From NCBI GenBank assembly GCA_038202665.1, contig JBBRES010000003.1, forward strand, positions 1 to 34,700: a stretch of 34,700 nucleotides of DNA, written 5' to 3'. Position 1 is the stretch's first letter. Each line of letters starts with the position of its first letter. This stretch comes from Candidatus Kapaibacterium sp. (GTDB lineage: Bacteria > Bacteroidota > Ignavibacteria > Kapaibacteriales > Kapaibacteriaceae). Position numbers and translations under genes: made by a program. A model generated the notes under the pieces. That model did not search any database. It was not told the DNA's origin and saw nothing but the letters and a program-made list of their open reading frames with translations. Below are positions 11,588 to 25,978 of the stretch, piece by piece.

Positions 11588-11594
11588 GATGCGA

Positions 11595-12447: not shown

Positions 12448-15400
12448 TTAGCGGACGATCGTCACCGTAGAGGTGAAGATGTTGCCACCGTTGCTGAGCT
12501 TCACGATATAACGACCGGCAGGAAGAGCAGCAGCATTGAGATCTGCGCTATACATACCCATCGTCATGTCTGTGTCCACCATCGTGGCCACGAGCTCACC
12601 AACTGCATTGTAAAGACCTAGAGTAACACGGCCATTGTTTACAACTGTGTAGTTCACGGCAGCCGTTTGTGCGACTGGGTTTGGAGCTACTGCAACTGTA
12701 AGTGTGTTGGCGCCAACTTCTTCGGCCATAAGGCGAATCGCTGGTGTGTTGCTATTGTCAATCTTGATTGTATTCGTAACGCCGGACTTTACTGAACCAA
12801 GGATCGAACCTGTCACTGCGTTAACCACAGTATAGTTGCGATCTGGATAGTTCATTGTCAACGACATTGGGAACGAAACACCTTGCAAGTTGATCACTGG
12901 ATTCACAACATCTTCTACATACATGTTCGTGCTGAAGCGAACATCGAAGAGGTTTAGTGGAGCAACTGGAGGCAATTCGAACATTTCACGTGCTTCAACC
13001 TTCGTACGCTCTGCAAGGTAGAGATTCGTTGACTTGCCGCTTACGTCGTTGATCGACACTTGTGTTGCACCAGCGAGAACGCTGTTGCGAGCTGAAGTCA
13101 TGTTGATACCGGTCTTCCTGTTGGAACGAGCCGACATCATCAAGTATCCGTGACCGCTGATCTTCAACCAGTGACCACGACCTGGTACGACTTCAGTAAT
13201 CGCCTCATAACCACGATCGGTGTTATAGCGATAGATGTCACCCAAGATCTCCGCACCTGTCGAACTGATGGCCAAGAGGCTGACTGCTTCTACGCTGATA
13301 GGTGTAGACAACGAACCGATCGTGTTCCAACCATCAAACAGTTCTGTAGGATACGTCTTATCATCGATGCGCGTGATACGAACACCGGCGATTGTCTTAT
13401 CAATCTCGTCTGCATACTTGATGAAGTAGCCAATACCTGGCTTCACTGTCTGGTTCTGCTGGTACGCGCTCTGTGAGAAGAACACTGGAATGTTGAGCGC
13501 CTTCTTAAAGACGTCACGATAGAATGCCGATGATGGATTCACAGGAACCGAGAGAAGGTTCCAACCCTTGTTGATAACAGGGAAGGACACAACCTTTGGA
13601 AGTGTGTACTCGATAGCGAACGCTGTGATGTCTGCATCACGAATCGTAAAGGAGTACTTCGTTCCACCTAGGTTCGTTGCTTGACGCATGTTCACGTTGA
13701 AGCGCTCACCATTCAGAATATCACGGATGAACAGATCAGATCCCGCAGGGAAATCATCTGTATCCCATGATACTACGATTGGATAGTTAAGAGCGCTACC
13801 TGCGCTGAAGCGGCAGATGTAGACAAGTGTTGTGTCCGAATAGATGTTCCGAATGTCGCGCGAGGAGAACTTCGGACGGCTTGTGCTAGCAGACCACAGA
13901 TCACCAAGACCGAACTGATAGATATCATTTCCATCTGGCGTTTGCGGATACCAACGTGCACCGAATCCATTCAATGCGTTTTGATATACGGTTTCGCCGA
14001 ACAGTGTGTCTACGGAGTCACGAGCGCGGGCTCCAACTCCGAAGATGATATTCGTACGTTCGATAGGATTGTTCGAGTTACGAAGCTCAACACGGATACC
14101 ACGAGTTGGACCGGAAGGTCCAGCTTGCCATTGGTTGCTCTCGTCGAACTGACTTGGCTCGAATGGTGGGCGGAAGTAGATGAACGTAACCTTCATGCGC
14201 ACTGGGGAAACGTCCGCCGAGTACGAAGAGAACGTCAAATATCCGATGTAAACGCCTGCTACCTCGCCGCCTTCACCAACTGCTAGTTCAGCTGGGTCGC
14301 AAATCACACGCATGTTTAGGTCACGCTGCAATACGGTTGCATTACCAAGTGGGTCTGTACCGTTCGTCGTTCCAAGGATACCCTTGTCGAGATACGATAC
14401 GAAACCTTGACGAACTGGATTTGGGAATGGGTTTACTTCACCCGATCCACCCTTGGTGAACGACTTGAATTTCAACCACTTTGAATCGGATTGGACGAAG
14501 ATGTCTGTCAAACGTGAACCAGCGGTAGCATTGATAACATCAATGTCACGTGTACCGATTCCATTTACAGCGTCATCATATGTTGAACCAGAGTCCAGAG
14601 TTACTGGATCTACGATAAACCATTGTTGGTTATTCGAATTGTCTACAGAGTCTGCAATACGGAAACGGCGATCTGAAACGCTTGTAAACGTAAAGCGTGG
14701 AATCTCGTCCGTTACTTCCAACCAAACCATGCCGAAGCGTGATGGACGAAGTGGGTCGCGAACTTGCTCTTGCTGGTTAGCGTCGACGTAGTAGTTGTCT
14801 ACGCCGCCGAGACCAGAGTAGCGGCCTGGAACTGGATCGTTCGGGAACGCAAGTTCCTTGCCAACTTGGAAGTCGTTGTAATACAGTGTGTCGTTTGTAA
14901 GGATGAGCGGAGTACGCGCACTTACCGGATTCGAAGCTGGGTTAGCCAAGACTCGGAAACGCATGTAGAACATCTCAACGAACGGACGCTGGTCACAAGC
15001 ATCTGCTGAATTTCCTGTCTGTGGAAGTGCCTTTGGCGAGATACCAGTAATCAAGACACGCTTACCACGCAAGCGGTTCTGGATTGGACTGTTAATCACG
15101 TTCTGATACGAGGTGTCTCTCGACACGTTCGTTGCAAACTCAAAGTCTTTAGCAAGGCAGCCGATAGGCATAGCTTGGTTACCACGAAGTGGACCATTCT
15201 TATCGATCCCTACGAACTCGACAGCCGTGCTATCGAATTGTACTTTGATCTTAAAGCTGTAGATCGGGAAAGCCTTGTACGTGGCTGTTGTGCGCCAGCA
15301 GTTCTTAATAAAAACTGGCACCAAAATCTCACGTACGCCATTGGCACCACTACGTGGCGCCCAGATGCGGCCGTCCGGGTAGTACGTTTGGTTCCAACCG

Positions 15401-15543
15401 GCGCCTTGGCCCGTCAGGGTAAGCGTCGGAATCTCGACCGCTTGGGCGTGTGCCCATTGCGACCCGATACCTGTCAACGCTGCAAACAAGAGAATAACGC
15501 CAATCTTGGCGCTACTTCCCCATAGAGCATATCGACGATTCAT
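12448..15543 (-). CDS. Large T9SS-secreted multidomain protein with N-terminal cohesin-like module
   Basis: GAGGAG RBS and signal peptide ending AHA-Q. Cohesin-like ILVPVFIKN...IYSFKIKVQFDSTAVEFVGI...MFYMRFRV...TPLIL. GWN duplicated module. CTD VAPNP...LYNAVGELV...LPAGRYIVKL...TIVR. Confidence 0.85.
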   Translation of the reverse strand: MNRRYALWGSSAKIGVILLFAALTGIGSQWAHAQAVEIPTLTLTGQGAGWNQTYYPDGRIWAPRSGANGVREILVPVFIKNCWRTTATYKAFPIYSFKIKVQFDSTAVEFVGIDKNGPLRGNQAMPIGCLAKDFEFATNVSRDTSYQNVINSPIQNRLRGKRVLITGISPKALPQTGNSADACDQRPFVEMFYMRFRVLANPASNPVSARTPLILTNDTLYYNDFQVGKELAFPNDPVPGRYSGLGGVDNYYVDANQQEQVRDPLRPSRFGMVWLEVTDEIPRFTFTSVSDRRFRIADSVDNSNNQQWFIVDPVTLDSGSTYDDAVNGIGTRDIDVINATAGSRLTDIFVQSDSKWLKFKSFTKGGSGEVNPFPNPVRQGFVSYLDKGILGTTNGTDPLGNATVLQRDLNMRVICDPAELAVGEGGEVAGVYIGYLTFSSYSADVSPVRMKVTFIYFRPPFEPSQFDESNQWQAGPSGPTRGIRVELRNSNNPIERTNIIFGVGARARDSVDTLFGETVYQNALNGFGARWYPQTPDGNDIYQFGLGDLWSASTSRPKFSSRDIRNIYSDTTLVYICRFSAGSALNYPIVVSWDTDDFPAGSDLFIRDILNGERFNVNMRQATNLGGTKYSFTIRDADITAFAIEYTLPKVVSFPVINKGWNLLSVPVNPSSAFYRDVFKKALNIPVFFSQSAYQQNQTVKPGIGYFIKYADEIDKTIAGVRITRIDDKTYPTELFDGWNTIGSLSTPISVEAVSLLAISSTGAEILGDIYRYNTDRGYEAITEVVPGRGHWLKISGHGYLMMSARSNRKTGINMTSARNSVLAGATQVSINDVSGKSTNLYLAERTKVEAREMFELPPVAPLNLFDVRFSTNMYVEDVVNPVINLQGVSFPMSLTMNYPDRNYTVVNAVTGSILGSVKSGVTNTIKIDNSNTPAIRLMAEEVGANTLTVAVAPNPVAQTAAVNYTVVNNGRVTLGLYNAVGELVATMVDTDMTMGMYSADLNAAALPAGRYIVKLSNGGNIFTSTVTIVR

Positions 15544-15573: not shown

Positions 15574-16770
15574 TCATTTCATTACCATTTTCAATCTGAT
15601 CACTCCACCACATTGCATCTGTACGAGTACAGGTGCATTTGGAAGATGATCACCGGTGATCACCATAGTCTGTTGATCGCCACGTGGAACGAATGGAATT
15701 CGTTCGCCCAACAACGTGAACACTTCTACTGACTCTGGTTGCCCATGAAGAGACTGGATGATGATGTCACCACCAATTGTGGTGCACCATGCAGTCCCTT
15801 CATCAACAACCGTCTGAAACACTGACGTTGCCAACGTCTTATTCTTAATCTCACATGTACTCATCGTGTCTGTGTTCTTGGCAACTCGACAATAACAACT
15901 GTCAACAATTCTAGTAGTTACATGAACAATTGCTCGCTTACTACTGTCGTTCGTTAGTGAACGGATACTTACTCGAAACTCTGTCGCAACGCTCTGTGCT
16001 TTCACAGTCCAAACGAATGTCGATGTGTCGGATGTCAGAACAGTCGAGATCAATGTAAACGTCGTGTCCGGTACTAATGGTTGAATACTGTCGATTGTAA
16101 AAGCTCCCGCATGTACCATTTGCAGCGTGCACTCTACAAGACCCTTTGTGATTCCTGGCATTTTCAACGTTAGTGGTAAGGATATCGATGAGTCCTTTCC
16201 AGAAACGATGTAGTTGCGTTGTTGGAACACTGAAGCGATATCGTCAGTGACTGTTCCCTTTGCGATCGTTCTCACGATGCCAGAAACGCTGTTTGAATAC
16301 TGTCGACGAAACTCACTGTTAAAGAGAACCTCGTCAAGTGAAACAGTGCTCGTATCTCCGCAGCCGCCTTTGAACTGCCCTTGAAAAGCAATCAGCGGTA
16401 GGTTTCCTCTTGCATGCTTTAAGATGGATGCTCCACCAGCATAGCAAACGCCGCCTTGATCCTTTGGACGCCAGACCGGACCGAGATCGCTCATTTGAGC
16501 AGCAAGTGTGCCTGTCGTAAGCATGTCTGTAAAGACAAGCTTAGTTGTGTCGTACTTTAAAAAGATGTCAAAGGACATGAGTGAGTCTGAAAAGTAGATC
16601 TCGCCAAGGTTGACGTAGATCAAGAACTTCTGATCACTCTGCGAAGAGCAAACATTAATCGTCTGCTGTGATGCAATGACGAGTGTGTCCGCGGCTGCCG
16701 AGGGTAAGCTGCTGACCGCCCAAAGGACGGTCAGCAGACTTATGATCCTCAACAATTTTTCAATCAACAC
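15574..16770 (-). CDS. Secreted protein with cohesin-like module and degenerate T9SS CTD
   Basis: GTG start and signal peptide. FLIYVNLGE...LMSFDIFLKYDTTKLVFTDMLTTGTLA...LIAFQGQF...VSLDEVLFN follows the cohesin pattern. C-terminal VEVFTLLGERI...LKMVMK resembles a CTD. Confidence 0.78.
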   Translation of the reverse strand: MLIEKLLRIISLLTVLWAVSSLPSAAADTLVIASQQTINVCSSQSDQKFLIYVNLGEIYFSDSLMSFDIFLKYDTTKLVFTDMLTTGTLAAQMSDLGPVWRPKDQGGVCYAGGASILKHARGNLPLIAFQGQFKGGCGDTSTVSLDEVLFNSEFRRQYSNSVSGIVRTIAKGTVTDDIASVFQQRNYIVSGKDSSISLPLTLKMPGITKGLVECTLQMVHAGAFTIDSIQPLVPDTTFTLISTVLTSDTSTFVWTVKAQSVATEFRVSIRSLTNDSSKRAIVHVTTRIVDSCYCRVAKNTDTMSTCEIKNKTLATSVFQTVVDEGTAWCTTIGGDIIIQSLHGQPESVEVFTLLGERIPFVPRGDQQTMVITGDHLPNAPVLVQMQCGGVIRLKMVMK

Positions 16771-16778
16771 GTAACGAC

Positions 16779-18821
16779 TTAGCGAACAACTGTCATTGTG
16801 GTAGTTGTGCTGAATGTGTTACCGTCTACGCGAACCATGTATGCGCCGGCAGAAACCGTAGCACCAGATGCGTCGCGACCGTTCCACTCAACATTGAACA
16901 TACCATTCGACACTTGACCGTTGAATACCGTGTTCACCAACTTGCCAAAGGCATCGTAGACACGAACTGTGTATACGCCACCAACTGGTACGTTTACTGT
17001 GATCGATGCATTCGACGTCATTGGGTTTGGATACGCGACGATGTTCTCGCCAGCCTTCATTTCGATGTTTTGAATCGTTTGATTCGACTTGTTTACATCG
17101 TTGAAGCGAATGCCGCTGAATGTATAGGCGTCTTGTTCCTGGACAGTAACGTATGCAACTGGAGTTGACACGTCGAAGGAACCATTACCTGTTACAACTG
17201 CGATTGCATTGCTATTGTCGATATCAACGTTGCCATTCACAGCGCTAACTGGATTGACATTGACGATCTCGCTATTAGATACAAACTTGACTGCAAACAC
17301 ACCTTCGTGCGGATTGTTCAAGTAGACAGGAATACGTGCCAAACCATTGCCAAGCTTTACAGGAGTTCCAAATGCCACATTGTCTGCAGAGATGGGTCCA
17401 GTAGTCTTACCAAAGTCAGGTCCAGTCGTATCGTTGTCCTTGATCCATGGAAGCATTGGAAGACGACCGCTCAAGTATCGCATGATAAGAGCCGCATCAT
17501 ATTCGTTTGCTTCATAGTAGATCTGCGTCAGGTTACTGACATCTGGAGCACGACCACCTGTACCATAAAGGCCATCGCCCTCATAGTACACACGTAGTAC
17601 TTGCTTGCTCGTGAACTGATCCACATCAATCGTACGACGCCAAATAATGATGTTTGGCGGCACTGGATTCTGGCCCACGTTCGTGGAGCAGCATGTGAAA
17701 TCAGGATTCAACGTTGTGTAGTAGAAACGACCGGAGTGATTCACATCACCCTGATACGCTTGACGCTTCCATACGCTATCGAGCGGACGGTTTGTTACAA
17801 TCGAGCGCATGATTACTCGTGCATCACCCGATGTTACACGGCGGTTTTGGGGAAGGTTCTCGTGACGAGCGCCACGGGCTGCAGATGTGTCTGCATCACC
17901 ATAGCCCCACGTGTCGAACGTGAAACGAACGATACCAGAGAAGCGGATGACAGCATCCGAGCGGCCGCCAGAAGGCTGCCAGCGAGTTGTGCTGTCGGTA
18001 CGTGTGCTTGCTCCAACATTTGGAACCCACACAAGACCATTCCAGAAGTCTGCCAAGTAACCAGGGAAACCACCGTTACCCTTGATACCAACAGTTGCAC
18101 CACGTGTTACCACAGTAGTGTTGTTTGTATAAGGATTGCCAGCAATTTGACCATAAGCGAATTCAATATCGCCTTGGAAATTGTTGTCCGCACTTGTCTC
18201 ATAGAGACGAGCTTGGAAATTGCCAACGCTTGAATTCACAGTTTGATCGTTGATGTTTAGGTTCTTCCACTGAATAACGATACAGCGGCGAACCGGCTTG
18301 ATAGTATCACAGTTCTCATCGCGATCAACATCATACACCCATGAGATCTCGGCAGGCATGTAACCTGCATTGATGTCTCCTGCTGTACGCAGACGGTGAT
18401 CACCCCAAAACGGAGCGATTACGTTATCTGGATACGAAGCTGAGTTGATGAAGAGACCATTTGGTTGTTTCGCAGGAACAAGTTTCGTGCCTTCAAAGGT
18501 CGCGAAGCCGTTAATGCTTACATAGAGTCCAAATCGCTCTGCATTGTTGAAGTTGAATCGGAAACCTGATGGGAATGGCAGATATTGATAACCGTCATCA
18601 AGATCTACAACGTTTGTTGGCGGCAGCGTGAAGCTACCTGGTGCCAAAAGGATTTTGTTCGTTCGCGAAATAGGGCACGCATCGATATCACGATACGGGC
18701 GACCTACGACGAGTGTTGGCTGGCGAAACTGGTTCGTGATCGTTTGCGCCATGCCATCCACGCCGCCTATCGCGAGAGAACAGAGTACGAGTGCCGAAGC
18801 AATCAATACCTGTCTTTTCAT
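16779..18821 (-). CDS. T9SS-secreted protein: NIDO-like + dockerin-like + cohesin-like + FlgD-Ig-type CTD
   Basis: GGAG RBS before ATG 18821 (MKRQVLIA). DDG...YVSINGFATF...IAPFWGD...VIQW...FQARL (NIDO-like). GDAD...VTSGDARVIMRSIV and GDVNHSG...ANEYDAALIMRYLSG (dockerin repeats). CTD AYPNP...VYDAFGKLV...WNGRDASG...SAGAYMVR. Confidence 0.85.
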   Translation of the reverse strand: MKRQVLIASALVLCSLAIGGVDGMAQTITNQFRQPTLVVGRPYRDIDACPISRTNKILLAPGSFTLPPTNVVDLDDGYQYLPFPSGFRFNFNNAERFGLYVSINGFATFEGTKLVPAKQPNGLFINSASYPDNVIAPFWGDHRLRTAGDINAGYMPAEISWVYDVDRDENCDTIKPVRRCIVIQWKNLNINDQTVNSSVGNFQARLYETSADNNFQGDIEFAYGQIAGNPYTNNTTVVTRGATVGIKGNGGFPGYLADFWNGLVWVPNVGASTRTDSTTRWQPSGGRSDAVIRFSGIVRFTFDTWGYGDADTSAARGARHENLPQNRRVTSGDARVIMRSIVTNRPLDSVWKRQAYQGDVNHSGRFYYTTLNPDFTCCSTNVGQNPVPPNIIIWRRTIDVDQFTSKQVLRVYYEGDGLYGTGGRAPDVSNLTQIYYEANEYDAALIMRYLSGRLPMLPWIKDNDTTGPDFGKTTGPISADNVAFGTPVKLGNGLARIPVYLNNPHEGVFAVKFVSNSEIVNVNPVSAVNGNVDIDNSNAIAVVTGNGSFDVSTPVAYVTVQEQDAYTFSGIRFNDVNKSNQTIQNIEMKAGENIVAYPNPMTSNASITVNVPVGGVYTVRVYDAFGKLVNTVFNGQVSNGMFNVEWNGRDASGATVSAGAYMVRVDGNTFSTTTTMTVVR

Positions 18822-18865
18822 AAGGACTCCAAGGTTACAAGACATTGTTTTCGATGGCGAAGAGA

Positions 18866-18894: not shown

Positions 18895-18902
18895 ACTTCA
18901 TG

Positions 18903-21900
18903 TTAGCGGACAAGTACGATCTGTTGTGTGACGGAGCGAGTACCATCGCTGATGCGGCAGGTGTAAACACCATTTGCAAGAGCAAGGCCATTCGATGATC
19001 CGTTCCATTCGACCATGTGACGACCAGCATCAAAGGTGCTCTTTGCAAGCGTTACAACCTTTGTACCAATTGCATCATAGATCTCTACAGACACCAATTG
19101 TGAAACCGGTGTGCTGAACGTGATCATCGTAGACTCACTGAATGGATTCGGAGCTGCCGATGTGATCGCGAGATCAGCAAGTGGAGCCTCTGTTTCATTC
19201 ACTGCAGTTGTAAAGTCATACACGATGATGAAGCCCTTGAGAGCATCGCGACTGATGACGAGCGTGTCACAGCTACCATCGGTCCTGTGACCAATGTCGG
19301 CTGCTGAGCGACCATTACCTGTCTTCATGTTATAGCTGAACAGTGCGCCATTGCTGATGTCGTCGCGGATGTAGTACGAACCTGGGTTCTGTGCATCCAC
19401 TGCTGGAATAGCAGAACGACACCATGAAACTCGAACTGGATATGTCGCAGAACTCTGTCCAGTTTCACCACCACCTTGGAAGCGAGCACGATAGATCGCT
19501 TCGCCGGCTGTGTTGCTATAAGGATAGATGTTGCGAAGAACACCATTGCGATTCGGTATCGTCCAACGAGCGTCAAAGACGTCAAGGTACGGTACTGGTG
19601 GCAATTCGTATTCACAGTAGTTCGAATCAAGTTGACCGAAGGATCCATTTTCATCACCGCGAGTTGCTGTCTCTGTTCCGCCAACACCGAAGACAAGGAC
19701 TTGGAATGCACCAAGGTTGTTCTCGACGCGAACTGGAGCAGTGAAGCGTGTAGTTGCAGACACAGAAACTGCGTAGGACAATGTGTCCTTTGCACCCGAT
19801 GCATCTTCAACCACGATTCGGATAATAACACGACCATTAACTGGTGTAGCTACCATCTTGTCTGTTGAGATAACAACAAGCTGTGTATCTGCAATTGGGC
19901 TCTTCAGTTGGTTTGGCGTTACTGTCCATGTGCCCTCTGTTGGCTCAAGTACAGTGAACGTCAATGTTTCGTTACCAGATTGCTTACGAAGAAGATCAAG
20001 GTCTGCCACACGGATGGTATCCGAATATGCCTGGTCTTTATCAACGCAACGAATAATCGGCGAAGAGAAGAGACGTGGATTGTGGTTGTGATACCTGATG
20101 GTCATCGGGAGCGTCTTGATTGCACGCAAACCACCGCGGTCTGTAACAAGTACTGTTACATTGATCGATGTGTCTGTGCGAGGAAGATCTGTAACGCGTG
20201 GTGTACCGTACAGCAAACCACTAACGCGATCGATCTTCAACCAAGCTGGAGTTGTCTTGCGTGTAGAATCAAGTGCGATCGAACCTGCCTCAGAGAAGTA
20301 GGGATCGACGGCAATTGTTGTACGTGTTTCGTTTGTGTAAATCAGTTCGTAATCCTGTGCCTGTCCGAAGTTCGGGTCATAGACCTTGATACGGCGGCTA
20401 GAATCAAGAAGTTGAATGTTGTAGTCTTCATCCTCGAGTGCGTCTGGAAGTGATTCCGTAACAATCGTAGGTTGAACATTCACGAATACACGACGTGTCA
20501 TGTAGTTGAGACCACCGTGACCATCATTGACGACAAGTGTGACGAGTGAGTCAACATTAAGAGCGCCGTTCACTTGACCGATTGGCGTCAGGATCTGACG
20601 TGCTTCGTCGGCAGCGATACGTACGTTCATGCGACCCATTGATGTAAAGTCTGCTGCCACTGGATCGGCAACACTGCTTGCATTGTACTTGCGCAAGTAA
20701 CGGCTGGCCATCCAAATTGGACGTGCCTGGAGTACTTCATCAAGTGTTGTATCACCTGGTGCTTGGCGGATAGCAGTCGACATAAAGCCGTATGCCGTCT
20801 TACCATATCGGAAGTCCCATGGGCCGAACTTCTGAACGATTGCCCGGTTGTTGTCAACTGCTGCATTGTCTTCGAACTCATCATCTGTATTCACGTCAAG
20901 CATGAATCGAAGTGAATCCGTGAGATTGGCAACGAACTGAACATTCAGATCATCCGGCTGCTGTGTTGGTGTGGCTGCTGGATCATTGTAGCGCTCATCG
21001 ATGATGGCGTTAGGAGCAATGAGGAAGCGACCAACACGGGAAACCGTTGGTGTCATACGAAGTGTGTCAATCCAAACACCGTTCTTGAACGAGTTTGTGT
21101 CTGTTGTCGTTGGATCGAGAACGATCGTTACGTCACCAGTGAGCATGCTTGTGTATTGCTGTCCACCCGTTGTTGGCTTGTAGGCCCAAACAAAGCGTGG
21201 CATGCTGTCTACAACATGAATGTGGAAGCGGTATGACACAGTGTCCATCCAAGCAAAGTCAACTGTATCCTGCTGCAAGTAGCGAGCATTCGTATTGGAC
21301 TGATTGCGTTGATCAAGTGGAATCGAGTTGTTGTCGTATGCTTCAGCATGGAAGTAGCTCGGATAGAGATACATCCAACGGCTAATCACATCTTCAGAAA
21401 TACCGGATGCACGAAGACTGTCGACGATCTCGATTGATGGTGGGAAGTTCTTCGCTACTACGCGAACTTCTTCGCCACCTGGAACGATGTACGGGTTGAT
21501 AGGACGACCACGAAGCATACGATAGCCTGTAGCTCCCCACTTCGTGCCGTTCACTCCAGAAGCATTACCTGCTGTTACCAGCGTGTCACGCAACCAGTAC
21601 TTCAATGCTGAGTTCTGATCTGTGATGCTCCAATCATAGGAGAGATACGAACCGAAGGTTGAATCCATGACTGAACGTGGATCATAGAAGCGGTTCACGT
21701 CAACGGCTGTGATCGTAAAGATCGAGTCGCGCTCTGTGTAATCAAGTGCAGCAATCGGAGTACCCGTAGAATCTGCAGGGTATGATGCTGGCTCGAAGAA
21801 CCACTTACCGTCATTCTTTGGTGTGTAGAGACGATTCTCCGTAACAAACACGCGATTGCGCATTTCAGGAATCGTCAGGTTTCGCAACGTGTCTGCAGAT

Positions 21901-24900
21901 CCCGTAAAGACAGGAGGTGTTGTCGTGTTACCAACCGTGAAGGTCAAACCACCATCAAGTGCTGGTACAACACCAGCGCGCCATAGAACAGTACGCGAGA
22001 TAACCGATACTTGGTCACCTGCAATTACTGGAAGTGCGCGGTAGCGCTCACCACCAAAGTACGTTTCCTTGCTGCCATCTGAACCTGTGTTCGAGAATGG
22101 AAGACCCGGGCGATTACCAAGGCGGAAGCCTGCACCACCAAGTTCACCAGCTACGACTGAACCATCCCAACGGCGACCTGCAAGTGCTGCTGAATCTTCA
22201 GCTGCAGCATTGCGTGCGATACGCTGAAGAAGCGTAGCGCCAGTACCATAACTGGACAGGTTCTCATAGGAACGGCGAATGTTTGGATCACCACCATTTG
22301 TGGAATCTGGCACAAGTTCTACACGTGCACGGAAGACCGTGTCTGTGAGTGTCTTCTGCATCATGTTTACGCGGATGTAGTCACCCGTGCGCTGATTGAT
22401 CACGAAGAATACTGTCTCGTTGATCGCACGGCGGTCATTGTTGCTGATTTCAGCTGTTTGACCGTAGTCTGCACGAGTTTCCAAGAACAGTGGGTATCCA
22501 ATTGGATGATCACCAATGAACTCTGTCTGAACCTTTGCGATGTATGGATACATCTCCGCATCGAATGGATTGCGCGTTGTGCGCTTTACATACTTGAGGT
22601 ACGAAGGTTGTGTAGAGTCCATGTATGCACGAAGCACAGGTGGAATACCTACTGCAAAGTCTTCGATTGGCGACATACGACGACGTGAGTAGTCTGCCGT
22701 CTTGATGTCTGTTCCCTTATCGAAGATATCGTAGATACGACCTTCCATCAAGAGCGTGTCAGGGAAGGAATAGATCGGGATTGCCTTGTACTGATAGTAC
22801 CAGGTTGACTCGAAAGGACCTTGCTCTGTTGGATTGTTCGTTGCAGTACGCATGAAACGCATGTGCGTCTTACCGTTACCTGCAATGAAGAAGCTCTCTT
22901 GAATACGTTGGAACGTATTGTTCGCGGAAATCGGAAGGATCGTCTGAACGTTCGCTTCCGTGCGACCCCAGTAGTTGCCACGAAGCGTGTCAACACCACC
23001 GAAGCCTACGCCCGTTGTACCTGCAAGAACACCCTTGGTGTCGTATGCATCTGGCAAACGGATGATGAAGCGTGCGTCATTGTCGTAGATCGAATTTGAA
23101 GCTGTGCTGAATGTAGACCATGGGAGTGGACCCGTGATTTCACCATAAAGAACTGCACCAGCAAGGTCGCTCGAAACAATGTTCTCGCTATTTACAAGTG
23201 GTCCAGTTACGGTGTCTACATTACGACCGATTGGCGATGTGGCACGGTTGCCCGTTACCAAACAACGCTGAAGGGCGATCTTAAGATCATAGTTATCGGA
23301 GTAGATGGCAGCACCACTATACGCAGAATTGTTCTGCATACGAACGCGATCCATCCAAACCGTATCTACACGAATACGAACAGAGTCCAAAATGTAAATC
23401 GCTCCACCAAGTCCCGTTCCATTCTCACGAATGGTCGTTCCTGGATGAAGAAGATTACCGTTTGCACCCTTTTGCGTTGTTCCATTACCTTGACGTGCAG
23501 GGTTTGGATACGCCATGTTGTCATAGAAGCGTGTAAGCATGCGCTCATCAGCTTTTGGTCCAGCAACGAGCCCTGTAAAGACAGCGTCATTTACTGTGTA
23601 GTCTACAACAACACCCGTTGCGTCGATGATTGGTGTTGCAAGGTCTGTGAAGAAGAAGCGCTTGCGAAGAAATGCATCCGGTGTAACCATGGCAATAGCG
23701 CCACCATTACCGTTGTATGACTTGTTCGAGCGGAATTCTACACCCTTGACCATGTTCAGATCTGCATTTACCGTGTACAATCCACCACCACCACGTACAT
23801 ATGGCTTCATCGAATCAGCAATGTTTCCAGTGCTGTTCGTGATGAAGTGTGCACGTACGAAGCGCATCGAACGACGGCTTAGGGAAAGATTCAGCGGAAG
23901 TGCAACCGCAATCGCACCACCAGAATAACCCGATGTATTGCTTGAGAACTCGACACCGTAGTTTGTACCGTAGACCCACAAAGGACCTGCTGCACCACCG
24001 GCGCCATAGACCATCGGATTACGTGCAGCGTAGATGGCTCCACCTTCCGTAATGGCCTTGTTCATTTGGAACTTGATGTTGAAGCCGTAGTTACGAGCAA
24101 CAATCACGCCGTCCGAGCCACCAATCCATGGGGATGGAAGGATGTCTGTGGATGCTTCGACATAAACAGCACCACCACGACCCGACTCGTTAGCCGAGAA
24201 GAGCGTTGATGGATTGTTGTCGAGACCACCGCGGATCTGCAATTGACCAGCCGTAGCACTCGTATAGATGGCTCCACCTTGTGAGTAGTTGCCAACAAAT
24301 TCTGTCGGTGTTGTGATGTTCGTGTTCGAGATGTACGGTGTTACCGTCTTGTTCGACGTGTAGCGACCAGCAACGATCAAGTGCGTGCCTGTACCATCAA
24401 GGTAAAGAGCACCACCACGAGCACCATTTGAACGGATACCGTTCAACAATTCGGTTGACTGGCGGTTCTCGGCGTAGTTGCCTGTGAACTCAACCGTGTC
24501 TTTACCTTGGAAGTCGTTGATACCAAGACCAACAATCATCGTTGAGCGACCCGAAATGTACAAGGCGCCACCAAATGCATCGTTCTTCTTTGAACGATCT
24601 TCGAATGGACGCGTAGACGCGCGTGTTGCAACATCTGTCACAACGCGAATATTGCCGATACGAACCGTGTCCACATTTGCCAACAACACGCGGTTGCTGA
24701 TAAAGCGGATTTGGCGAATACGACCAAGGTACATTGCCAAACGTGCATCGTCAAGTGACTGGCGCTCTGTATCCGTGAAGGATGGTTCCGCTGCACTCGA
24801 GAACAAGTTGTCGATCGAAGGAATGTTTTGCTGAATTGGCTGGGCATTCACGACACTCGTAATGTACGGGTTCGTTTGCGCAGCGTACGGCTGAAGATTT

Positions 24901-25883
24901 GCAACAGTAACTTGATTCGGAGTTGGATACAGTTGAAGGTTTGAACCCACATACTGATCAACCGGAGCTTGTTGAATCTGAAGAGCACCACCGTGGTAGC
25001 GCGCCATGTTGTTGCGGAATGAGCAACCTACAAGCCATGTACGAACAGAGAACGTAGAGATAGCTCCACCGCTTCCGTTTGTTTGGCGCAAGATGTTGTC
25101 ATTTACTGCAAACTGATCTTGACGTGTTAGTTGTTGACCATTTGAATTGGCAAGGTAGATCGGTTGATTGTCAACCGTTGTGTCCTTGCGGAAATTCAAG
25201 AAGTCTACATCACGGAAGAATGCAGCGCGTGCACCTGGCAGAACGATGATGTGACCCCATTCGCGAGAGAAGTTATTCACGTCTCCTGCAACGAATGTGA
25301 TTCGTGCTGCCGATACATTAATCCTGCTACCAAGCATCGGACGGAACCAAGGGTTCAATCTGATCGCCGCTTGTTGACCGCCAAGTTCAAGACGACCGGC
25401 CTTGTACATGATGGCCTTCGCAGGCGTGAGACCCATAAGGTTCGGATCAGAACCCAGATCTACATTAAACACAATTCCGTACTTGGACGGGTGAATCGTG
25501 GGCTCCGTAGCGATCGTGGATGTTACGACGCCAGGAGCGCCGAAATAATTCACGTCGTCGTAGCCAGTATATGGCGGGAACAGTGCATTCACTGCGTTCG
25601 CATTATACGTGGCGGAAGCGCGACCATCCGCAAGAATTCGGCCACCCGTTGAGTCGATCATTCGACCGTTCGGAAGGAACTCCACGCGGGTCCCGAGCTC
25701 AATGACTAACGTACCACCGATCGTAAACGATCCTGAGATACGGTAAATCGTGTCACGTACGAATACGCGCACTTGGCCCGGAGGGAGACTACCGCGCACT
25801 TCAACGTAGTCCTGAGCATGGACCACAGAAAAGGCGGCGGTAAGCACAAGCAGCAAGCTGCTTAGACGAAACCAACGTTGCAT
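18903..25883 (-). CDS. Giant (~2326 aa) T9SS-secreted adhesin-like protein: Pmp-type beta-helix, cadherin/He_PIG Ig domains, CTD
   Basis: GGAGG RBS before ATG 25883 (MQRWFRLSS...VHA-Q). Ten GGA(I/L/V) motifs interleaved with FxxN. PTIVTESLPDALED...PAWLKID..SGLLYGTP...VTDRGG (He_PIG/cadherin-like). CTD APNPF...IYDAIG...WNG...LANGVY...VLVR. Confidence 0.88.
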   Translation of the reverse strand: MQRWFRLSSLLLVLTAAFSVVHAQDYVEVRGSLPPGQVRVFVRDTIYRISGSFTIGGTLVIELGTRVEFLPNGRMIDSTGGRILADGRASATYNANAVNALFPPYTGYDDVNYFGAPGVVTSTIATEPTIHPSKYGIVFNVDLGSDPNLMGLTPAKAIMYKAGRLELGGQQAAIRLNPWFRPMLGSRINVSAARITFVAGDVNNFSREWGHIIVLPGARAAFFRDVDFLNFRKDTTVDNQPIYLANSNGQQLTRQDQFAVNDNILRQTNGSGGAISTFSVRTWLVGCSFRNNMARYHGGALQIQQAPVDQYVGSNLQLYPTPNQVTVANLQPYAAQTNPYITSVVNAQPIQQNIPSIDNLFSSAAEPSFTDTERQSLDDARLAMYLGRIRQIRFISNRVLLANVDTVRIGNIRVVTDVATRASTRPFEDRSKKNDAFGGALYISGRSTMIVGLGINDFQGKDTVEFTGNYAENRQSTELLNGIRSNGARGGALYLDGTGTHLIVAGRYTSNKTVTPYISNTNITTPTEFVGNYSQGGAIYTSATAGQLQIRGGLDNNPSTLFSANESGRGGAVYVEASTDILPSPWIGGSDGVIVARNYGFNIKFQMNKAITEGGAIYAARNPMVYGAGGAAGPLWVYGTNYGVEFSSNTSGYSGGAIAVALPLNLSLSRRSMRFVRAHFITNSTGNIADSMKPYVRGGGGLYTVNADLNMVKGVEFRSNKSYNGNGGAIAMVTPDAFLRKRFFFTDLATPIIDATGVVVDYTVNDAVFTGLVAGPKADERMLTRFYDNMAYPNPARQGNGTTQKGANGNLLHPGTTIRENGTGLGGAIYILDSVRIRVDTVWMDRVRMQNNSAYSGAAIYSDNYDLKIALQRCLVTGNRATSPIGRNVDTVTGPLVNSENIVSSDLAGAVLYGEITGPLPWSTFSTASNSIYDNDARFIIRLPDAYDTKGVLAGTTGVGFGGVDTLRGNYWGRTEANVQTILPISANNTFQRIQESFFIAGNGKTHMRFMRTATNNPTEQGPFESTWYYQYKAIPIYSFPDTLLMEGRIYDIFDKGTDIKTADYSRRRMSPIEDFAVGIPPVLRAYMDSTQPSYLKYVKRTTRNPFDAEMYPYIAKVQTEFIGDHPIGYPLFLETRADYGQTAEISNNDRRAINETVFFVINQRTGDYIRVNMMQKTLTDTVFRARVELVPDSTNGGDPNIRRSYENLSSYGTGATLLQRIARNAAAEDSAALAGRRWDGSVVAGELGGAGFRLGNRPGLPFSNTGSDGSKETYFGGERYRALPVIAGDQVSVISRTVLWRAGVVPALDGGLTFTVGNTTTPPVFTGSADTLRNLTIPEMRNRVFVTENRLYTPKNDGKWFFEPASYPADSTGTPIAALDYTERDSIFTITAVDVNRFYDPRSVMDSTFGSYLSYDWSITDQNSALKYWLRDTLVTAGNASGVNGTKWGATGYRMLRGRPINPYIVPGGEEVRVVAKNFPPSIEIVDSLRASGISEDVISRWMYLYPSYFHAEAYDNNSIPLDQRNQSNTNARYLQQDTVDFAWMDTVSYRFHIHVVDSMPRFVWAYKPTTGGQQYTSMLTGDVTIVLDPTTTDTNSFKNGVWIDTLRMTPTVSRVGRFLIAPNAIIDERYNDPAATPTQQPDDLNVQFVANLTDSLRFMLDVNTDDEFEDNAAVDNNRAIVQKFGPWDFRYGKTAYGFMSTAIRQAPGDTTLDEVLQARPIWMASRYLRKYNASSVADPVAADFTSMGRMNVRIAADEARQILTPIGQVNGALNVDSLVTLVVNDGHGGLNYMTRRVFVNVQPTIVTESLPDALEDEDYNIQLLDSSRRIKVYDPNFGQAQDYELIYTNETRTTIAVDPYFSEAGSIALDSTRKTTPAWLKIDRVSGLLYGTPRVTDLPRTDTSINVTVLVTDRGGLRAIKTLPMTIRYHNHNPRLFSSPIIRCVDKDQAYSDTIRVADLDLLRKQSGNETLTFTVLEPTEGTWTVTPNQLKSPIADTQLVVISTDKMVATPVNGRVIIRIVVEDASGAKDTLSYAVSVSATTRFTAPVRVENNLGAFQVLVFGVGGTETATRGDENGSFGQLDSNYCEYELPPVPYLDVFDARWTIPNRNGVLRNIYPYSNTAGEAIYRARFQGGGETGQSSATYPVRVSWCRSAIPAVDAQNPGSYYIRDDISNGALFSYNMKTGNGRSAADIGHRTDGSCDTLVISRDALKGFIIVYDFTTAVNETEAPLADLAITSAAPNPFSESTMITFSTPVSQLVSVEIYDAIGTKVVTLAKSTFDAGRHMVEWNGSSNGLALANGVYTCRISDGTRSVTQQIVLVR

Positions 25884-25978
25884 ACTACCTCCAGTTGTTA
25901 AAAACATATGCTTTGCTTACTTCTTTGTTGTTCTTTTTCATTGTCATTTCTTGGTCAGACGGAAAAAACCGAAAAGGT

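What the first reader, a model, noticed from the sequence alone, without database searches (positions are those of the whole stretch)
17448..17900. Dockerin-like module with insertions at the same position in both Ca-binding loops
Seen: repeat 1 is G-DADTSA-[~13 aa]-RVTSGD-ARVIMRSIV. Repeat 2 is G-DVNHSG-[~72 aa, includes a vicinal CC]-EANEYD-AALIMRYLSGRLPMLP. Known: the dockerin consensus is G-DxNxDGxVNxxD-AxxxxRYxxG, twice, with a 12-residue loop. Inference: both loops are interrupted between positions 6 and 7, so HMMs could miss the module. The 72-aa insert may be a separate subdomain. The differing residues at positions 10/11 (SG vs EY) suggest asymmetric, single-mode or two-partner binding.
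Basis: partly seen in the sequence, partly recalled or inferred. Interest (0 to 1): 0.8.

Follow-up and report, generated by a model that had tools for sequence, protein, structure and literature searches.

The report
Split-loop dockerin in a Kapabacteria surface protein
A secreted surface protein of an uncultured Kapabacteria bacterium carries a protein-docking (dockerin) module whose two calcium loops are each split by an inserted segment, and the neighbouring gene appears to encode its docking partner.

Summary
Window 17448-17900 (- strand) encodes G316-P466 of a 688-aa T9SS-secreted protein, with the motifs, the 13-aa and 72-aa inserts and the CC as described.

Across 136 family rows, the Ca-ligand positions 1, 3, 5, 9 and 12 are conserved in both halves. 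Insert 1 keeps its length. Insert 2 leaves 17-195 residues between loop positions 6 and 12, where a canonical loop has 5.

With the insert columns deleted, the family profile aligns end to end with verified dockerins: hhalign 98%, E 2e-13, with the score peaking at the proposed insertion points.

An AlphaFold model (pLDDT 79.6) matched only dockerins at ranks 1-13 of 48,161 PDB chains (Z 9.2-3.4; next Z 2.6). Pfam, Foldseek and a PDB sequence search miss the module.

The module is single-copy and confined to one order-level clade. A complex model docks helices 1 and 3 on the cohesin-like N-domain of the adjacent 398-aa gene: score 0.72, best control 0.01.

R. flavefaciens ScaA and CttA dockerins already show 12-13-aa inserts in one loop (PMC5934362). 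This is therefore a new variant of a known kind. Ca binding and partner binding are inferred, not shown.

The parts
16779..18845 (-). Gene for the 688-aa secreted protein (P0001). Order of parts: signal peptide, NIDO-like N-domain, split-loop dockerin module, cohesin-like beta domain, T9SS C-terminal sorting domain.
   Evidence: ORF and translation. 449 homologues at E <= 1e-3, from Kapabacteria/Ignavibacteria MAGs.
17916..18743 (-). N-terminal domain, about residues 35-310. NIDO-like; this is a lead only.
   Evidence: Pfam NIDO matches 4 of 20 family members at E <= 1 (best 4.3e-4) but not the window protein itself. The conserved motifs are visible in A1.
17436..17909 (-). Dockerin-fold module, residues W313-D470.
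   Evidence: AF2 model with pLDDT 79.6 and pTM 0.76. VIA-align ranks 1-13 are all dockerins, Z 9.2-3.4. hhalign 98% with the inserts removed.
17880..17897 (-). Ca loop 1, first half (D317-A322; loop positions 1-6).
   Evidence: Column conservation: D317 in 134 of 134, D319 as D118/N14, S321 as S123/T9.
17841..17879 (-). Insert 1: 13 residues (A323-R335), with near-invariant H328 and Q333.
   Evidence: Length is conserved: 15 residues between positions 5 and 8 in 101 of 136 rows. H328 in 121 rows and Q333 in 133. pLDDT about 90. Residues 334-335 lie in the predicted interface.
17793..17840 (-). Ca loop 1, second half (R336-D341; positions 7-12), and helix 1 (to about T351).
   Evidence: V337 in 135 rows, T338 in 123, D341 in 136 of 136. 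DSSP helix at domain residues 40-51, which is residues 339-350. Predicted to contact the partner at residues 338-340, 342-343, 346-347 and 350-351.
17748..17792 (-). Linker with short helix 2 (residues 352-366).
   Evidence: 25 residues separate D12 of site 1 from D1 of site 2 in 121 of 136 rows. DSSP helix at domain residues 63-67.
17730..17747 (-). Ca loop 2, first half (D367-G372; positions 1-6).
   Evidence: D367 in 135 rows, N369 as N116/D11/H6, H370 in 135, G372 in 135.
17514..17729 (-). Insert 2: 72 residues (R373-Y444). It starts and ends with paired Y-rich strands, has a variable tip, and contains the non-conserved CC.
   Evidence: 17-195 residues lie between positions 6 and 12 across the 136 rows (mode 41; 77 in the window). 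Strands at domain residues 74-78 and 143-145; pLDDT 58-83. No PDB sequence match.
17445..17513 (-). Ca loop 2, second half (E445-D450; positions 7-12), helix 3, and the conserved ...RLPxLPW tail (to W467).
   Evidence: D450 in 136 of 136 rows, A451 in 135, P466 in 136. DSSP helix at domain residues 149-159. hhalign 85% to a dockerin repeat of P0218. Predicted contacts at residues 451, 455 and 458-460.
17061..17390 (-). Beta-rich domain, about residues 486-595. Cohesin-like; this is a lead only.
   Evidence: The top ESM Atlas feature hits (0.88, 0.86, 0.85) are clusters in which 32%, 79% and 25% of members carry Pfam Cohesin. All score under 0.9, so this is a lead only. No Pfam hit.
16782..17033 (-). 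T9SS type A C-terminal sorting domain (residues 605-688).
   Evidence: TIGR04183 scores 32.5 bits against a cut-off of 23. Pfam FlgD_ig E 1.1e-11 and Por_Secre_tail E 5.5e-5. PDB PorU and FlgD chains match in the profile search.
15574..16770 (-). Adjacent gene, 8 bases downstream: a 398-aa T9SS cargo protein. Its N-domain (residues about 25-195, window 16186-16698) is the predicted cohesin-like partner.
   Evidence: ESM Atlas score 0.93; 20 of 30 hits fall in the set of clusters where some members (14-18% in the two shown) carry Pfam Cohesin. Por_Secre_tail in 53 of 63 orthologues. Complex model 0.72 against best control 0.01. Present in 67 of 79 homologous loci.
12448..15543 (-). 1031-aa T9SS cargo protein with a faintly cohesin-like N-terminal region. 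A second candidate partner, not tested.
   Evidence: Pfam Cohesin matches 7 of 47 orthologues at E <= 1 (best 0.062). The only PDB profile hit is a cohesin chain, 4dh2_A, at E 1.1. Weak Cohesin hits fall in ORFs of 1058-1078 aa about 2 kb downstream of the module, read as this gene's orthologue, in 3 of 5 relatives. Present in 73 of 79 loci.
18903..25907 (-). Upstream 2334-aa T9SS cargo protein with Chlamydia-PMP-type repeats. Part of the conserved cluster.
   Evidence: Pfam Chlam_PMP E 1.7e-12 and Por_Secre_tail. TIGR04183 33 bits. Present in 75 of 79 loci.

Best explanation
Residues 313-470 of this T9SS-secreted surface protein form a true dockerin-fold module, made of two loop-helix 'F-hand' Ca2+ sites related by internal duplication. 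Both 12-residue Ca loops are split between loop positions 6 and 7.

Loop 1 carries a 13-residue insert of conserved length with a near-invariant His and Gln. Loop 2 carries a beta-hairpin-based insert of very variable length, 72 residues here. The ligand positions 1, 3, 5, 9 and 12 are kept in both halves, so the two halves of each loop most likely still close around a Ca2+ ion, with the inserts projecting outwards.

The fold and its homology to dockerins are shown by computation here. The next two steps are inferred. First, the module folds in a Ca-dependent way. Second, it uses helix 1 over its whole length, with the end of insert 1, plus the C-terminal half of helix 3 to dock in a single orientation onto the cohesin-like N-terminal domain of the 398-aa protein encoded 8 bases downstream. 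This would tie T9SS-anchored proteins of a conserved gene cluster into one cell-surface complex.

My confidence differs by step: about 0.85 for 'dockerin fold with both loops split', and about 0.45 for 'binds the neighbour's N-domain in the cohesin-dockerin manner'.
For: Sequence:
- The Ca-ligand and flanking positions are invariant or nearly so in 136 rows.
- The spacing from D12 of site 1 to D1 of site 2 is 25 residues in 121 of 136 rows.
- The two halves align with each other once the inserts are removed: hhalign 84.8%, E 6.6e-6.

Homology to dockerins:
- The family profile, searched against 1.84 billion representatives, gave 100 hits at E <= 1e-3. About 92 (those with E <= 1e-10) I take to be the family itself, judging from hit position and protein length. 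I Pfam-scanned 8 of the 100. The weak tail includes four multi-dockerin proteins (P0211 at E 2.7e-7, plus P0215, P0217, P0218) with Dockerin_1 E-values of 4e-34 to 3e-59.
- hhalign against P0218 gives 85% over helix 3.
- The unmodified profile against an 11-module dockerin reference gives 78%, in register from loop 1 position 6 to loop 2 position 7.
- With the inserts deleted it gives 98.0%, E 2.2e-13, over 59 of 63 columns. The score peaks at shift 0/+1. The reversed control gives 5%.

Fold:
- The AF2 model built on the 136-row alignment has pLDDT 79.6 and pTM 0.76, with the core blocks at 86-97.
- In the VIA-align search of 48,161 chains, ranks 1-13 are all dockerins: 5m2o_B (Z 9.2, rmsd 2.4, 70 of 74 residues aligned), 4fl4_A (Z 8.3, 67 of 68), 2ccl_B (Z 7.9, rmsd 1.8, 62 of 62), 5n5p_D, the ScaA dockerin (Z 7.4, 82 of 87), and so on. 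The next, unrelated chain has Z 2.6.
- In the second look, only 10 of 137 chains reach Z >= 2; the 8 entries listed (one row per entry) are all dockerins.

Precedent: solved R. flavefaciens ScaA and CttA dockerins have 12- and 13-residue inserts at the same place in their second loop and still bind Ca (PMC5934362, passages read).

Partner:
- The complex model of the module with residues 25-195 of the 398-aa neighbour scores 0.72 (ipSAE, median of 3 runs). The best of 3 controls is 0.01. That mark was reached by 116 of 157 solved complexes and 2 of 215 mismatched pairs; these counts hold only roughly because my own alignments were used.
- The runs agree in at least 96% of contacts, and the partner's pLDDT is at least 61.
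- The contacts fall on residues 338-351 of helix 1 and 451-460 of helix 3. By my recall, these are the classical dockerin recognition positions 9-11, 13-14, 17-18 and 21-22.
- The neighbour's N-domain looks cohesin-like to ESM Atlas: score 0.93, with 20 of 30 hits in the set of clusters where some members (14-18% in the two shown) carry Pfam Cohesin.

Gene context: the genes are adjacent, and the cluster is conserved in 67-75 of 79 loci.
Against: Sequence and fold searches that do not find a dockerin:
- Pfam Dockerin_1 is not reached: 12.1 bits against 22.9 on the fragment, and no hit on the whole protein. Only 11 of 77 family members match at E <= 1, best 0.0052.
- The PDB sequence-profile search found no dockerin.
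- Foldseek found nothing at E <= 1e-3; its best hit, at 0.34, is an endonuclease.

Limits of the models:
- The first AF2 run, on 77 closer sequences, gave a poor model with pLDDT 44.5. The good model therefore depends on the deeper alignment.
- AF2 and the complex predictor were trained on many dockerins and cohesin-dockerin complexes, so both passes may partly reflect memory of a likeness.
- No coordinates were available to me, so I did not inspect Ca geometry or where the inserts point.

Unlike classical dockerins:
- The module is single-copy in every genome that has it.
- The window's genome, 82% complete, has no Pfam dockerin at E <= 1 and only sub-threshold cohesin hits: 7, the best at 19.6 bits against a cut-off of 24.1.

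The proposed partner:
- The neighbour's N-domain has no Pfam Cohesin hit.
- Its predicted interface residues are not more conserved than the rest of the domain: mean top-residue frequency 0.41 against 0.47, permutation p 0.84.
- Other candidate partners, namely the protein's own C-terminal domain and the 1031-aa protein, were not tested. A close cousin of the true partner can also pass such a test.
Confidence: 0.65

Rival explanations
1. The module has a dockerin fold, but its partner is not the 398-aa neighbour. It might bind the cohesin-like beta domain that follows it in the same polypeptide, either in cis as a stabilising dyad or in trans to form head-to-tail chains. Alternatively it might bind the N-domain of the 1031-aa protein.
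For: - The protein's own residues 478-600 resemble cohesin clusters in ESM Atlas (0.88, 0.86, 0.85).
- In nearly all of the 100 representatives the module sits at about residues 270-470 of proteins about 620-700 aa long, the same place as in the window protein.
- The 1031-aa protein gives recurrent faint Cohesin signals: 7 of 47 orthologues, the only PDB profile hit, and hits in ORFs of 1058-1078 aa about 2 kb downstream of the module, read as this gene's orthologue, in 3 of 5 relatives.
- Its cohesin-motif region aligns with that of the 398-aa protein at 46% probability.
- According to the tool text, close cousins of a true partner can pass the complex test.
Against:
- In P0147 only the module (residues 306-480; 37% identity, E 2e-28) is shared with the window protein, not the following domain. 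The module therefore does not need that domain.
- All the cohesin signals for these alternatives are below threshold.
Confidence: 0.17
2. The module is a dockerin-derived, Ca-stabilised scaffold that no longer docks to any cohesin. Its role is structural: either a rigid spacer between the NIDO-like head and the cell-anchored tail, or a frame that displays the highly variable insert 2 as the functional, ligand-binding or antigenically variable element.
For: - Insert 2 leaves 17 to 195 residues between positions 6 and 12, while the frame is nearly invariant.
- The module is single-copy, and the window genome has no dockerin or cohesin above the Pfam thresholds.
- The predicted interface on the 398-aa protein is not preferentially conserved.
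- The function of the analogous flap in the ScaA dockerin is stated to be unknown (PMC5934362).
Against: - The surface positions of helix 1 and helix 3 that contact cohesins in classical dockerins are conserved. For example, T338 is at 0.90, R343 at 0.82 and R347 at 0.74 top-residue frequency.
- The complex model places exactly these positions on the neighbour.
- Insert 1, which touches the interface, is conserved in both length and sequence.
Confidence: 0.14
3. It is not a dockerin at all. The GDxDxS...VTxxDA motifs are convergent or a chance likeness within a different fold, and the structure models are drawn towards dockerins by those motifs.
For: Pfam, Foldseek and the PDB sequence search give no significant dockerin match. 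The first AF2 model was poor. The VIA-align notes say that a best Z of 7-8 is common for models without a clear match.
Against: - Thirteen consecutive top ranks out of 48,161 chains are dockerins. They cover 62 of 62 up to 82 of 87 target residues, and the next chain drops to Z 2.6.
- The whole-library profile search independently pulled out multi-dockerin proteins.
- The deletion-scan hhalign peaks at the predicted insertion points, and the reversed control gives 5%.
- All five ligand positions are conserved in both halves.
Confidence: 0.04

Closest known systems
Ruminococcus flavefaciens ScaA dockerin (PDB 5N5P; PMC5934362, passages read)
   Same: - It has a dockerin fold with an insertion in the middle of a Ca-coordination loop, at the same place. 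The 12 residues lie between the n+4 and n+6 ligand positions, so the ligands sit at n, n+2, n+18 and n+23.
- It uses a single binding mode, with helix 1 in contact over its whole length and helix 3 through its C-terminus. This matches the pattern in the complex model here.
- Structural match to my model: Z 7.4, rmsd 3.3, 82 of 87 residues aligned.
   Different: - In ScaA only the second loop is interrupted, and by 12 residues. Here both loops are interrupted: 13 residues in loop 1 and 72 in loop 2, with 17-195 residues between positions 6 and 12 across the family.
- ScaA lost the ligands at n+4 and n+8. Here positions 5 and 9 are conserved.
- ScaA belongs to a Firmicute cellulosome with many dockerins per genome. 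This module is single-copy, lies in a T9SS cargo protein of Kapabacteria, and has no link to carbohydrate-active enzymes.
R. flavefaciens CttA X-dockerin (type III; PDB 4IU2; described in PMC5934362)
   Same: It has a 13-residue insert in the C-terminal Ca loop plus further inserts, which are described there as structural buttresses. Both are cell-surface attachment systems.
   Different: - Structural similarity to my model is weak: Z 3.4, rmsd 3.9.
- CttA has five helices and an N-terminal X-module dyad. Here the DSSP of the model shows three helices of the dockerin core, and the preceding domain is NIDO-like.
- Its first loop is not reported as interrupted.
Classical type I / group 1 dockerins (e.g. 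PDB 5M2O, 4FL4, 2CCL; Pfam PF00404)
   Same: - They are the best structural matches: Z 9.2, 8.3 and 7.9, covering 70 of 74, 67 of 68 and 62 of 62 residues, at 24-30% identity.
- They share the duplicated loop-helix segments, Asp at position 12, and the spacing between repeats.
   Different: - Their loops are contiguous and 12 residues long. Group 1 dockerins of R. flavefaciens vary by only +/-1 residue (PMC2930009).
- They usually sit at the C-terminus of enzymes, occur in many copies per genome, and are detectable by Pfam.
- Many have symmetric recognition residues and a dual binding mode. Here positions 10/11 differ between the halves: hydrophobic-N against E-Y.
Non-cellulosomal cohesin- and dockerin-like modules (Peer et al. 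2009, FEMS Microbiol Lett; seen only as a reference-list entry, paper not held)
   Same: These are cohesin- or dockerin-like modules outside cellulosomes, in proteins that are not plant-cell-wall enzymes. ESM Atlas also lists Bacteroidota clusters that combine Cohesin with Por_Secre_tail or with Dockerin_1.
   Different: I could not read the paper, so I cannot say whether split-loop forms or Kapabacteria are covered. A full-text search for 'Kapabacteria' with 'dockerin' found 0 papers.

Membership tests
Dockerin (Pfam PF00404 Dockerin_1; dockerin fold) | Score above the Pfam gathering threshold (22.9 bits) | tested here: not met
   The fragment scores 12.1 bits (E 0.24), and the whole protein gives no hit at E <= 10. 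11 of 77 family members match at E <= 1, best 0.0052.
Dockerin (Pfam PF00404 Dockerin_1; dockerin fold) | Two tandem loop-helix (F-hand) segments with Ca ligands at loop positions 1, 3, 5, 9 and 12 (Asp at position 12) | tested here: met
   - Site 1: D317, D319, S321, T338, D341.
- Site 2: D367, N369, N/D/S371, N/T/D447, D450.

These are conserved in 116-136 of 136 rows, as one residue or as a small set of ligand-type residues at positions 5 and 9 of site 2. The two halves align with each other at 84.8%.
Dockerin (Pfam PF00404 Dockerin_1; dockerin fold) | Contiguous 12-residue Ca-binding loops | tested here: not met
   Both loops are interrupted, by +13 and +72 residues in the window. Solved dockerins with one interrupted loop are accepted members (PMC5934362). 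I therefore treat this feature as typical rather than strictly defining.
Dockerin (Pfam PF00404 Dockerin_1; dockerin fold) | Three-helix fold with antiparallel helices 1 and 3, superposable on solved dockerins | tested here: met
   This was tested on a predicted model only (pLDDT 79.6). VIA-align ranks 1-13 of 48,161 chains are dockerins, Z 9.2-3.4, with nearly full coverage of the targets. One search confirms this. Foldseek was not significant.
Dockerin (Pfam PF00404 Dockerin_1; dockerin fold) | Profile-level sequence homology to verified dockerins | tested here: met
   The whole-library profile search hits four multi-dockerin proteins. hhalign gives 78% unmodified, and 98.0% (E 2.2e-13) with the inserts removed.
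Dockerin (Pfam PF00404 Dockerin_1; dockerin fold) | Ca2+ binding and Ca-dependent folding | not testable with these tools
   Inferred only, from the conserved ligand positions.
Dockerin (Pfam PF00404 Dockerin_1; dockerin fold) | Binds a cohesin module through helices 1 and 3 | tested here: inconclusive
   The complex model with the neighbour's N-domain scores 0.72, against a best control of 0.01. That mark was reached by 116 of 157 solved complexes and 2 of 215 mismatched pairs. At least 96% of contacts are shared between runs, and the partner's pLDDT is at least 61. The model supports binding but does not show it, and the pass may come from memory of solved cohesin-dockerin complexes.
Dockerins with an interrupted Ca loop (R. 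flavefaciens ScaA / CttA type) | Insert of about 12-13 residues between ligand positions n+4 and n+6 of the second loop, with a canonical first loop | tested here: not met
   The insertion site is the same. However, the first loop is also interrupted, and the second insert is 72 residues here, with 17-195 residues between positions 6 and 12 in the family.
Canonical EF-hand (helix-loop-helix) | An entering helix directly before each Ca loop | tested here: not met
   The DSSP of the model shows no helix before loop 1 (domain residues 1-33 are coil) and only a 5-residue helix before loop 2. This is the F-hand arrangement of dockerins.
Cohesin (Pfam PF00963), for the N-domain of the 398-aa neighbour | Score above the Pfam gathering threshold (24.1 bits) | tested here: not met
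   No Cohesin hit for the window protein, and Cohesin is absent from the 25 most-matched families listed for its 63 orthologues at E <= 1. The only support is ESM Atlas likeness (0.93; 20 of 30 hits in the set of clusters where some members, 14-18% in the two shown, carry Pfam Cohesin) and the complex model.
T9SS type A cargo (TIGR04183 C-terminal sorting domain) | C-terminal sorting domain above the curated cut-off (23 bits) | tested here: met
   32.5 bits at residues 605-684. A C-terminal fragment of SprA lies at a contig edge of the same genome (E 4.2e-8).

The most novel reading that the evidence does not exclude
Kapabacteria may possess a T9SS-anchored, non-cellulosomal cohesin-dockerin assembly system. 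Its single dockerin per genome would have both Ca loops opened. One loop holds a conserved flap that joins the binding interface. The other holds a hypervariable inserted subdomain. The dockerin would then act at once as the plug that assembles a multi-protein surface complex and as a display frame for a fast-evolving element. This would be the first dockerin with a domain nested inside a Ca-binding loop.
Probability: 0.3. Interest if true: 0.7.

Novelty: new variant of a known kind. Interest (0 to 1): 0.55.

Why it matters
**Fold tolerance.** The finding extends what a dockerin, or any EF/F-hand type Ca loop, can tolerate. It shows insertions in both loops at the same position, one of them domain-sized and freely variable in length, with all ligand positions retained.

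**Detection.** Profile HMMs and Foldseek both miss the module. Similar split-loop dockerins may therefore be under-counted in surveys of cohesin-dockerin systems outside Firmicutes.

**Biology.** It gives a concrete, testable hypothesis for how a conserved cluster of large T9SS cargo proteins of unknown function in Kapabacteria is assembled on the cell surface.

**Engineering.** A loop that accepts 12-190 extra residues would be a natural grafting site in cohesin-dockerin tools.

Tried and rejected
- **AF2 on the 77-row locus alignment (A2).** pLDDT was 44.5 and the model was unusable. It was superseded by the 136-row alignment A3.
- **How A3 was built.** A3 holds the window domain, 82 of the 100 representative hits and 53 locus segments. 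I left out 18 representatives: short fragments and the non-family rows P0211-P0218. I used 53 of the 76 non-redundant locus segments, to stay under 150 rows.
- **One structure prediction got no answer** and was repeated.
- **Foldseek against PDB.** Nothing at E <= 1e-3. Dockerins 8x39, 4uyq_B and 2vn6_B appear only among non-significant rows.
- **PDB sequence searches.** The module profile found no dockerin; the only rows are MINDY-2 at E 1.1. The whole-protein profile hit only FlgD/PorU-like chains for the C-terminal domain. Insert 2 alone gave nothing, best E 0.16.
- **Pfam KH_12.** It matches 25 of 77 members, but all are far below threshold (at most 17.2 bits against 27) and lie over helix 1 to loop 2. 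I rejected it as spurious.
- **P0213.** This repeat protein is hit 9 times by profile positions 16-43. It has no dockerin (SWM_repeat, Calx-beta) and was not pursued.
- **hhalign against two Pfam-verified cohesin segments.** I compared the 398-aa, 1031-aa and own-protein alignments with cohesin segments fetched from relatives. All were at or below 9% probability. The two cohesins also fail to match each other (0.4%), so the test has no power.
- **Conservation of the predicted interface.** There is no enrichment on either side. This is reported in the Against line.
- **Peer et al. 2009** is not held.
- **Own C-terminal domain and 1031-aa N-domain as partners.** They could not be tested because the cap is one complex job.

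Full report
**Observation.**
The finding lies in the ORF at window 16779..18845 on the minus strand, which encodes 688 aa. Coordinates 17448-17900 encode G316-P466. The two motif pairs are present exactly as described. Repeat 1 is G-DADTSA / RVTSGD-A, separated by 13 residues. Repeat 2 is G-DVNHSG / EANEYD-A, separated by 72 residues that include a CC (lengths counted).

**The protein and its family.**
- The C-terminus is a T9SS type A sorting domain: TIGR04183 at 32.5 bits against a cut-off of 23, and Pfam FlgD_ig at E 1.1e-11.
- A word-based search found 449 homologues at E <= 1e-3 among the 8000 candidates scored. Where they are named, they come from Kapabacteria/Ignavibacteria MAGs. They are 57-66% identical at about 675-730 aa, with a distant set at 37-41% identity and 625-934 aa.
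- A scan of one genome per species gave 198 relatives, of which 79 loci were kept. Each of the 79 loci holds exactly one copy of the module.
- In a sample of 301 genomes of the phylum, 18 have the module, always as one match. They belong to families f1 (8 of 9), f2 (6 of 6), f3 (1 of 1) and f4 (1 of 1) of the window's order, plus one genome of another family in the same class. None was found in the other genomes searched.
- The window's own genome, 82% complete, has one copy.

**Conservation of the two half-sites.**
I aligned the window domain (residues 300-485) with 82 representatives and 53 locus segments, giving 136 rows (A3). Left out were 18 of the 100 representative hits (fragments and non-family rows) and 23 of the 76 non-redundant locus segments.

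Every canonical Ca-ligand position is conserved in both halves:
- Site 1: D317 (134 of 134 rows with a residue), D319 (D118/N14), S321 (S123/T9), V337 (135), T338 (T123/S8/N5), D341 (136 of 136).
- Site 2: D367 (135), N369 (N116/D11/H6), position 5 (N82/D25/S22), G372 (135), position 8 (A73/V50), position 9 (N63/T48/D18), D450 (136 of 136), A451 (135).

Lengths:
- Between positions 5 and 8 of site 1 there are 15 residues in 101 of 136 rows, where a canonical loop has 2. This insert carries near-invariant H328 (121 rows) and Q333 (133 rows).
- Between positions 6 and 12 of site 2 there are 17-195 residues, where a canonical loop has 5. The mode is 41 and the window has 77.
- D12 of site 1 is followed by D1 of site 2 after 25 residues in 121 of 136 rows.
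- The CC occurs in 2 of 136 rows.

Insert 1 is instead a conserved feature.

**Homology to dockerins.**
Standard libraries miss the module:
- Dockerin_1 gives 12.1 bits (cut-off 22.9) on the fragment and nothing on the whole protein. It matches 11 of 77 members at E <= 1.
- A PDB sequence-profile search finds no dockerin.

A profile of the module, searched against 1.84 billion representative proteins, returned 100 hits at E <= 1e-3:
- About 92 (those with E <= 1e-10) I take to be the family itself, judging from hit position and protein length; only 8 of the 100 were Pfam-scanned.
- P0147 carries the module behind a choice-of-anchor I domain. It shares only residues 306-480 with the window protein (37% identity, E 2e-28), so the module is portable.
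- The weak tail contains four multi-dockerin proteins with Dockerin_1 E-values of 4e-34 to 3e-59.

From three of those proteins I cut 11 verified dockerin modules as a reference. Results against it:
- The unmodified family profile aligns at 78% probability, in register from position 6 of loop 1 to position 7 of loop 2.
- Sliding both deletion windows gives 65.7 at +1, 60.9 at +2, 53.4 at -1, about 50 at +/-3, about 35 at +/-6 and 31-37 at +/-9. The reversed profile gives 5%.

The insertion points are therefore between loop positions 6 and 7, give or take one residue. The two halves also align with each other (84.8%).

**Fold.**
- AlphaFold2 on the shallow 77-row alignment failed (pLDDT 44.5).
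- On the 136-row alignment it gave pLDDT 79.6 and pTM 0.76. Helices lie at residues 339-350, 362-366 and 448-458, directly after the two conserved Asp residues and in the linker. Strands at 373-377 and 442-444 flank insert 2.
- Foldseek found nothing significant.
- VIA-align against 48,161 representative PDB chains put dockerins at ranks 1-13. The top matches are 5m2o_B (Z 9.2, rmsd 2.4, 70 of 74 residues), 4fl4_A (Z 8.3, 67 of 68), 2ccl_B (Z 7.9, rmsd 1.8, 62 of 62), 4dh2_D (Z 7.4), 5n5p_D (Z 7.4, 82 of 87) and 5nrk_B (Z 7.3), continuing down to 4iu2_B at Z 3.4. All of them span model residues about 10-170 across both inserts. The first unrelated chain has Z 2.6.
- A second look at Foldseek's 137 chains found Z >= 2 for 10 chains; the 8 entries listed are all dockerins.

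The tool warns that Z 7-8 alone is common. The weight here comes from the clean run of one family, the full coverage of the targets and the gap below them. The model was made without templates, but by a network that has seen dockerins.

**What is already known.**
Passages of PMC5934362 describe two precedents. The R. flavefaciens ScaA dockerin has a 12-residue insert in the middle of its second Ca loop, with ligands at n, n+2, n+18 and n+23. The CttA X-dockerin has a 13-residue insert in the same loop. The role of the ScaA flap is stated there to be unknown. PMC2930009 reports group 1 dockerins with second loops of 13 or 11 residues.

Loop interruption at this position is thus known, but only for one loop and for 12-13 residues. 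A full-text search for Kapabacteria with dockerin found no paper. The review of non-cellulosomal dockerins by Peer et al. (2009) is not held, so I cannot exclude that related forms are listed there.

**Context and partner.**
- The gene sits in a run of T9SS-tail genes: 2334 aa with PMP repeats, 688 aa, 398 aa, 1031 aa and 258 aa. A TPR gene lies upstream and glycosyltransferases downstream.
- The 2334-, 398- and 1031-aa genes accompany the module in 75, 67 and 73 of 79 loci.
- The window genome has no Pfam dockerin at E <= 1 and only sub-threshold Cohesin hits elsewhere. Two of five relatives have a Cohesin hit over the cut-off elsewhere in the genome.
- Three domains in the cluster look cohesin-like, at lead level only:
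  - The N-domain of the 398-aa neighbour: ESM Atlas score 0.93, with 20 of 30 hits in the set of clusters where some members (14-18% in the two shown) carry Pfam Cohesin.
  - The protein's own residues 478-600: scores 0.88, 0.86 and 0.85.
  - The N-terminus of the 1031-aa protein: Pfam Cohesin in 7 of 47 orthologues (best 0.062), and the only PDB hit is a cohesin at E 1.1.

The result:
- Score 0.72 (runs 0.76, 0.70, 0.72), against a best control of 0.01. That mark was reached by 116 of 157 solved complexes and 2 of 215 mismatched pairs; these counts hold only roughly, since my own alignments were used.
- At least 96% of contacts are shared between runs, and the partner's pLDDT is at least 61.
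- Contacts on the module are residues 334-335 (the end of insert 1), 338-340, 342-343, 346-347 and 350-351 (all of helix 1), and 451, 455 and 458-460 (helix 3).
- Contacts on the partner are residues 65-70, 95-104, 110-117 and 147-151.

This is the geometry reported for single-mode dockerins. Because many such complexes are solved, the pass may come from memory. It shows that the pair looks like a cohesin-dockerin pair, not that it binds.

Against the claim, the partner's predicted interface is no more conserved than the rest of its domain (0.41 against 0.47, p 0.84). The 398-aa protein also evolves fast: 15-30% identity to its orthologues outside the window's genus, where the module-bearing protein keeps about 60-66% in its close orthologues.

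**Verdict.**
This is a dockerin-fold module with both Ca loops split at the same position, invisible to standard HMMs, and asymmetric at the recognition positions: hydrophobic-N against E-Y at positions 10/11.

It is a new variant of a known kind. Ca binding, the role of the inserts and the identity of the partner remain inferences. The other two candidate partners were not tested.

Noticed in passing
window 11595-26689 (- strand): There is a run of five consecutive genes with T9SS sorting tails: 2334, 688, 398, 1031 and 258 aa. A TPR gene (25979-26689) lies upstream, and GT2 and GT9 glycosyltransferase genes lie downstream. The three large neighbours are syntenic in 67-75 of 79 homologous loci.
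   Followed up: partly
window 15574-16770 (- strand): The 398-aa neighbour evolves much faster than its flanking genes. It is 15-30% identical to most orthologues. The module-bearing protein keeps about 60-66% in its close orthologues, and the N-terminal 330 aa of the 1031-aa protein keeps 62-73% in its close orthologues. The 398-aa protein keeps four invariant cysteines: C41, C137, C292 and C294.
   Followed up: partly
window 17916-18743 (- strand); P0106, P0115, P0118: The N-terminal domain gives sub-threshold Pfam NIDO (nidogen-like) hits in 4 of 20 family members, best 4.3e-4. Homologues of 925-934 aa carry a second copy of this domain (alignment columns 100-330).
   Followed up: partly
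P0147 (1772 aa): The split-loop module occurs once in a different architecture: Big_5, then choice-of-anchor I, then the module, then a T9SS tail. Only the module is shared with the window protein.
   Followed up: partly
P0213 (1507 aa): A repeat protein with SWM_repeat and Calx-beta domains matches profile positions 16-43 nine times. These positions cover the first half of loop 1 plus insert 1. Its repeat unit contains 'GADTRVD...NKRLTINDGS'. Whether this is a chance sum of repeats or a related Ca motif is unexplained.
   Followed up: no
window 11595-11638: The 258-aa T9SS-tail ORF (11595-12371) and the GT2 glycosyltransferase ORF (10556-11638) overlap by 44 bases as listed. The true start of the GT2 gene may lie further in.
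   Followed up: no
G000 contigs C10, C35, C33, C30, C15, C8, C19 (L081-L087): There are seven sub-threshold Cohesin-HMM hits (best 19.6 bits against 24.1). Five lie in open frames of 1055-1720 aa and two in frames of 570 and 230 aa, elsewhere in the window's genome. Relatives have similar hits, two of them above the cut-off. Cohesin-like modules seem common in large proteins of this clade, although the clade has only one dockerin-like module.
   Followed up: partly
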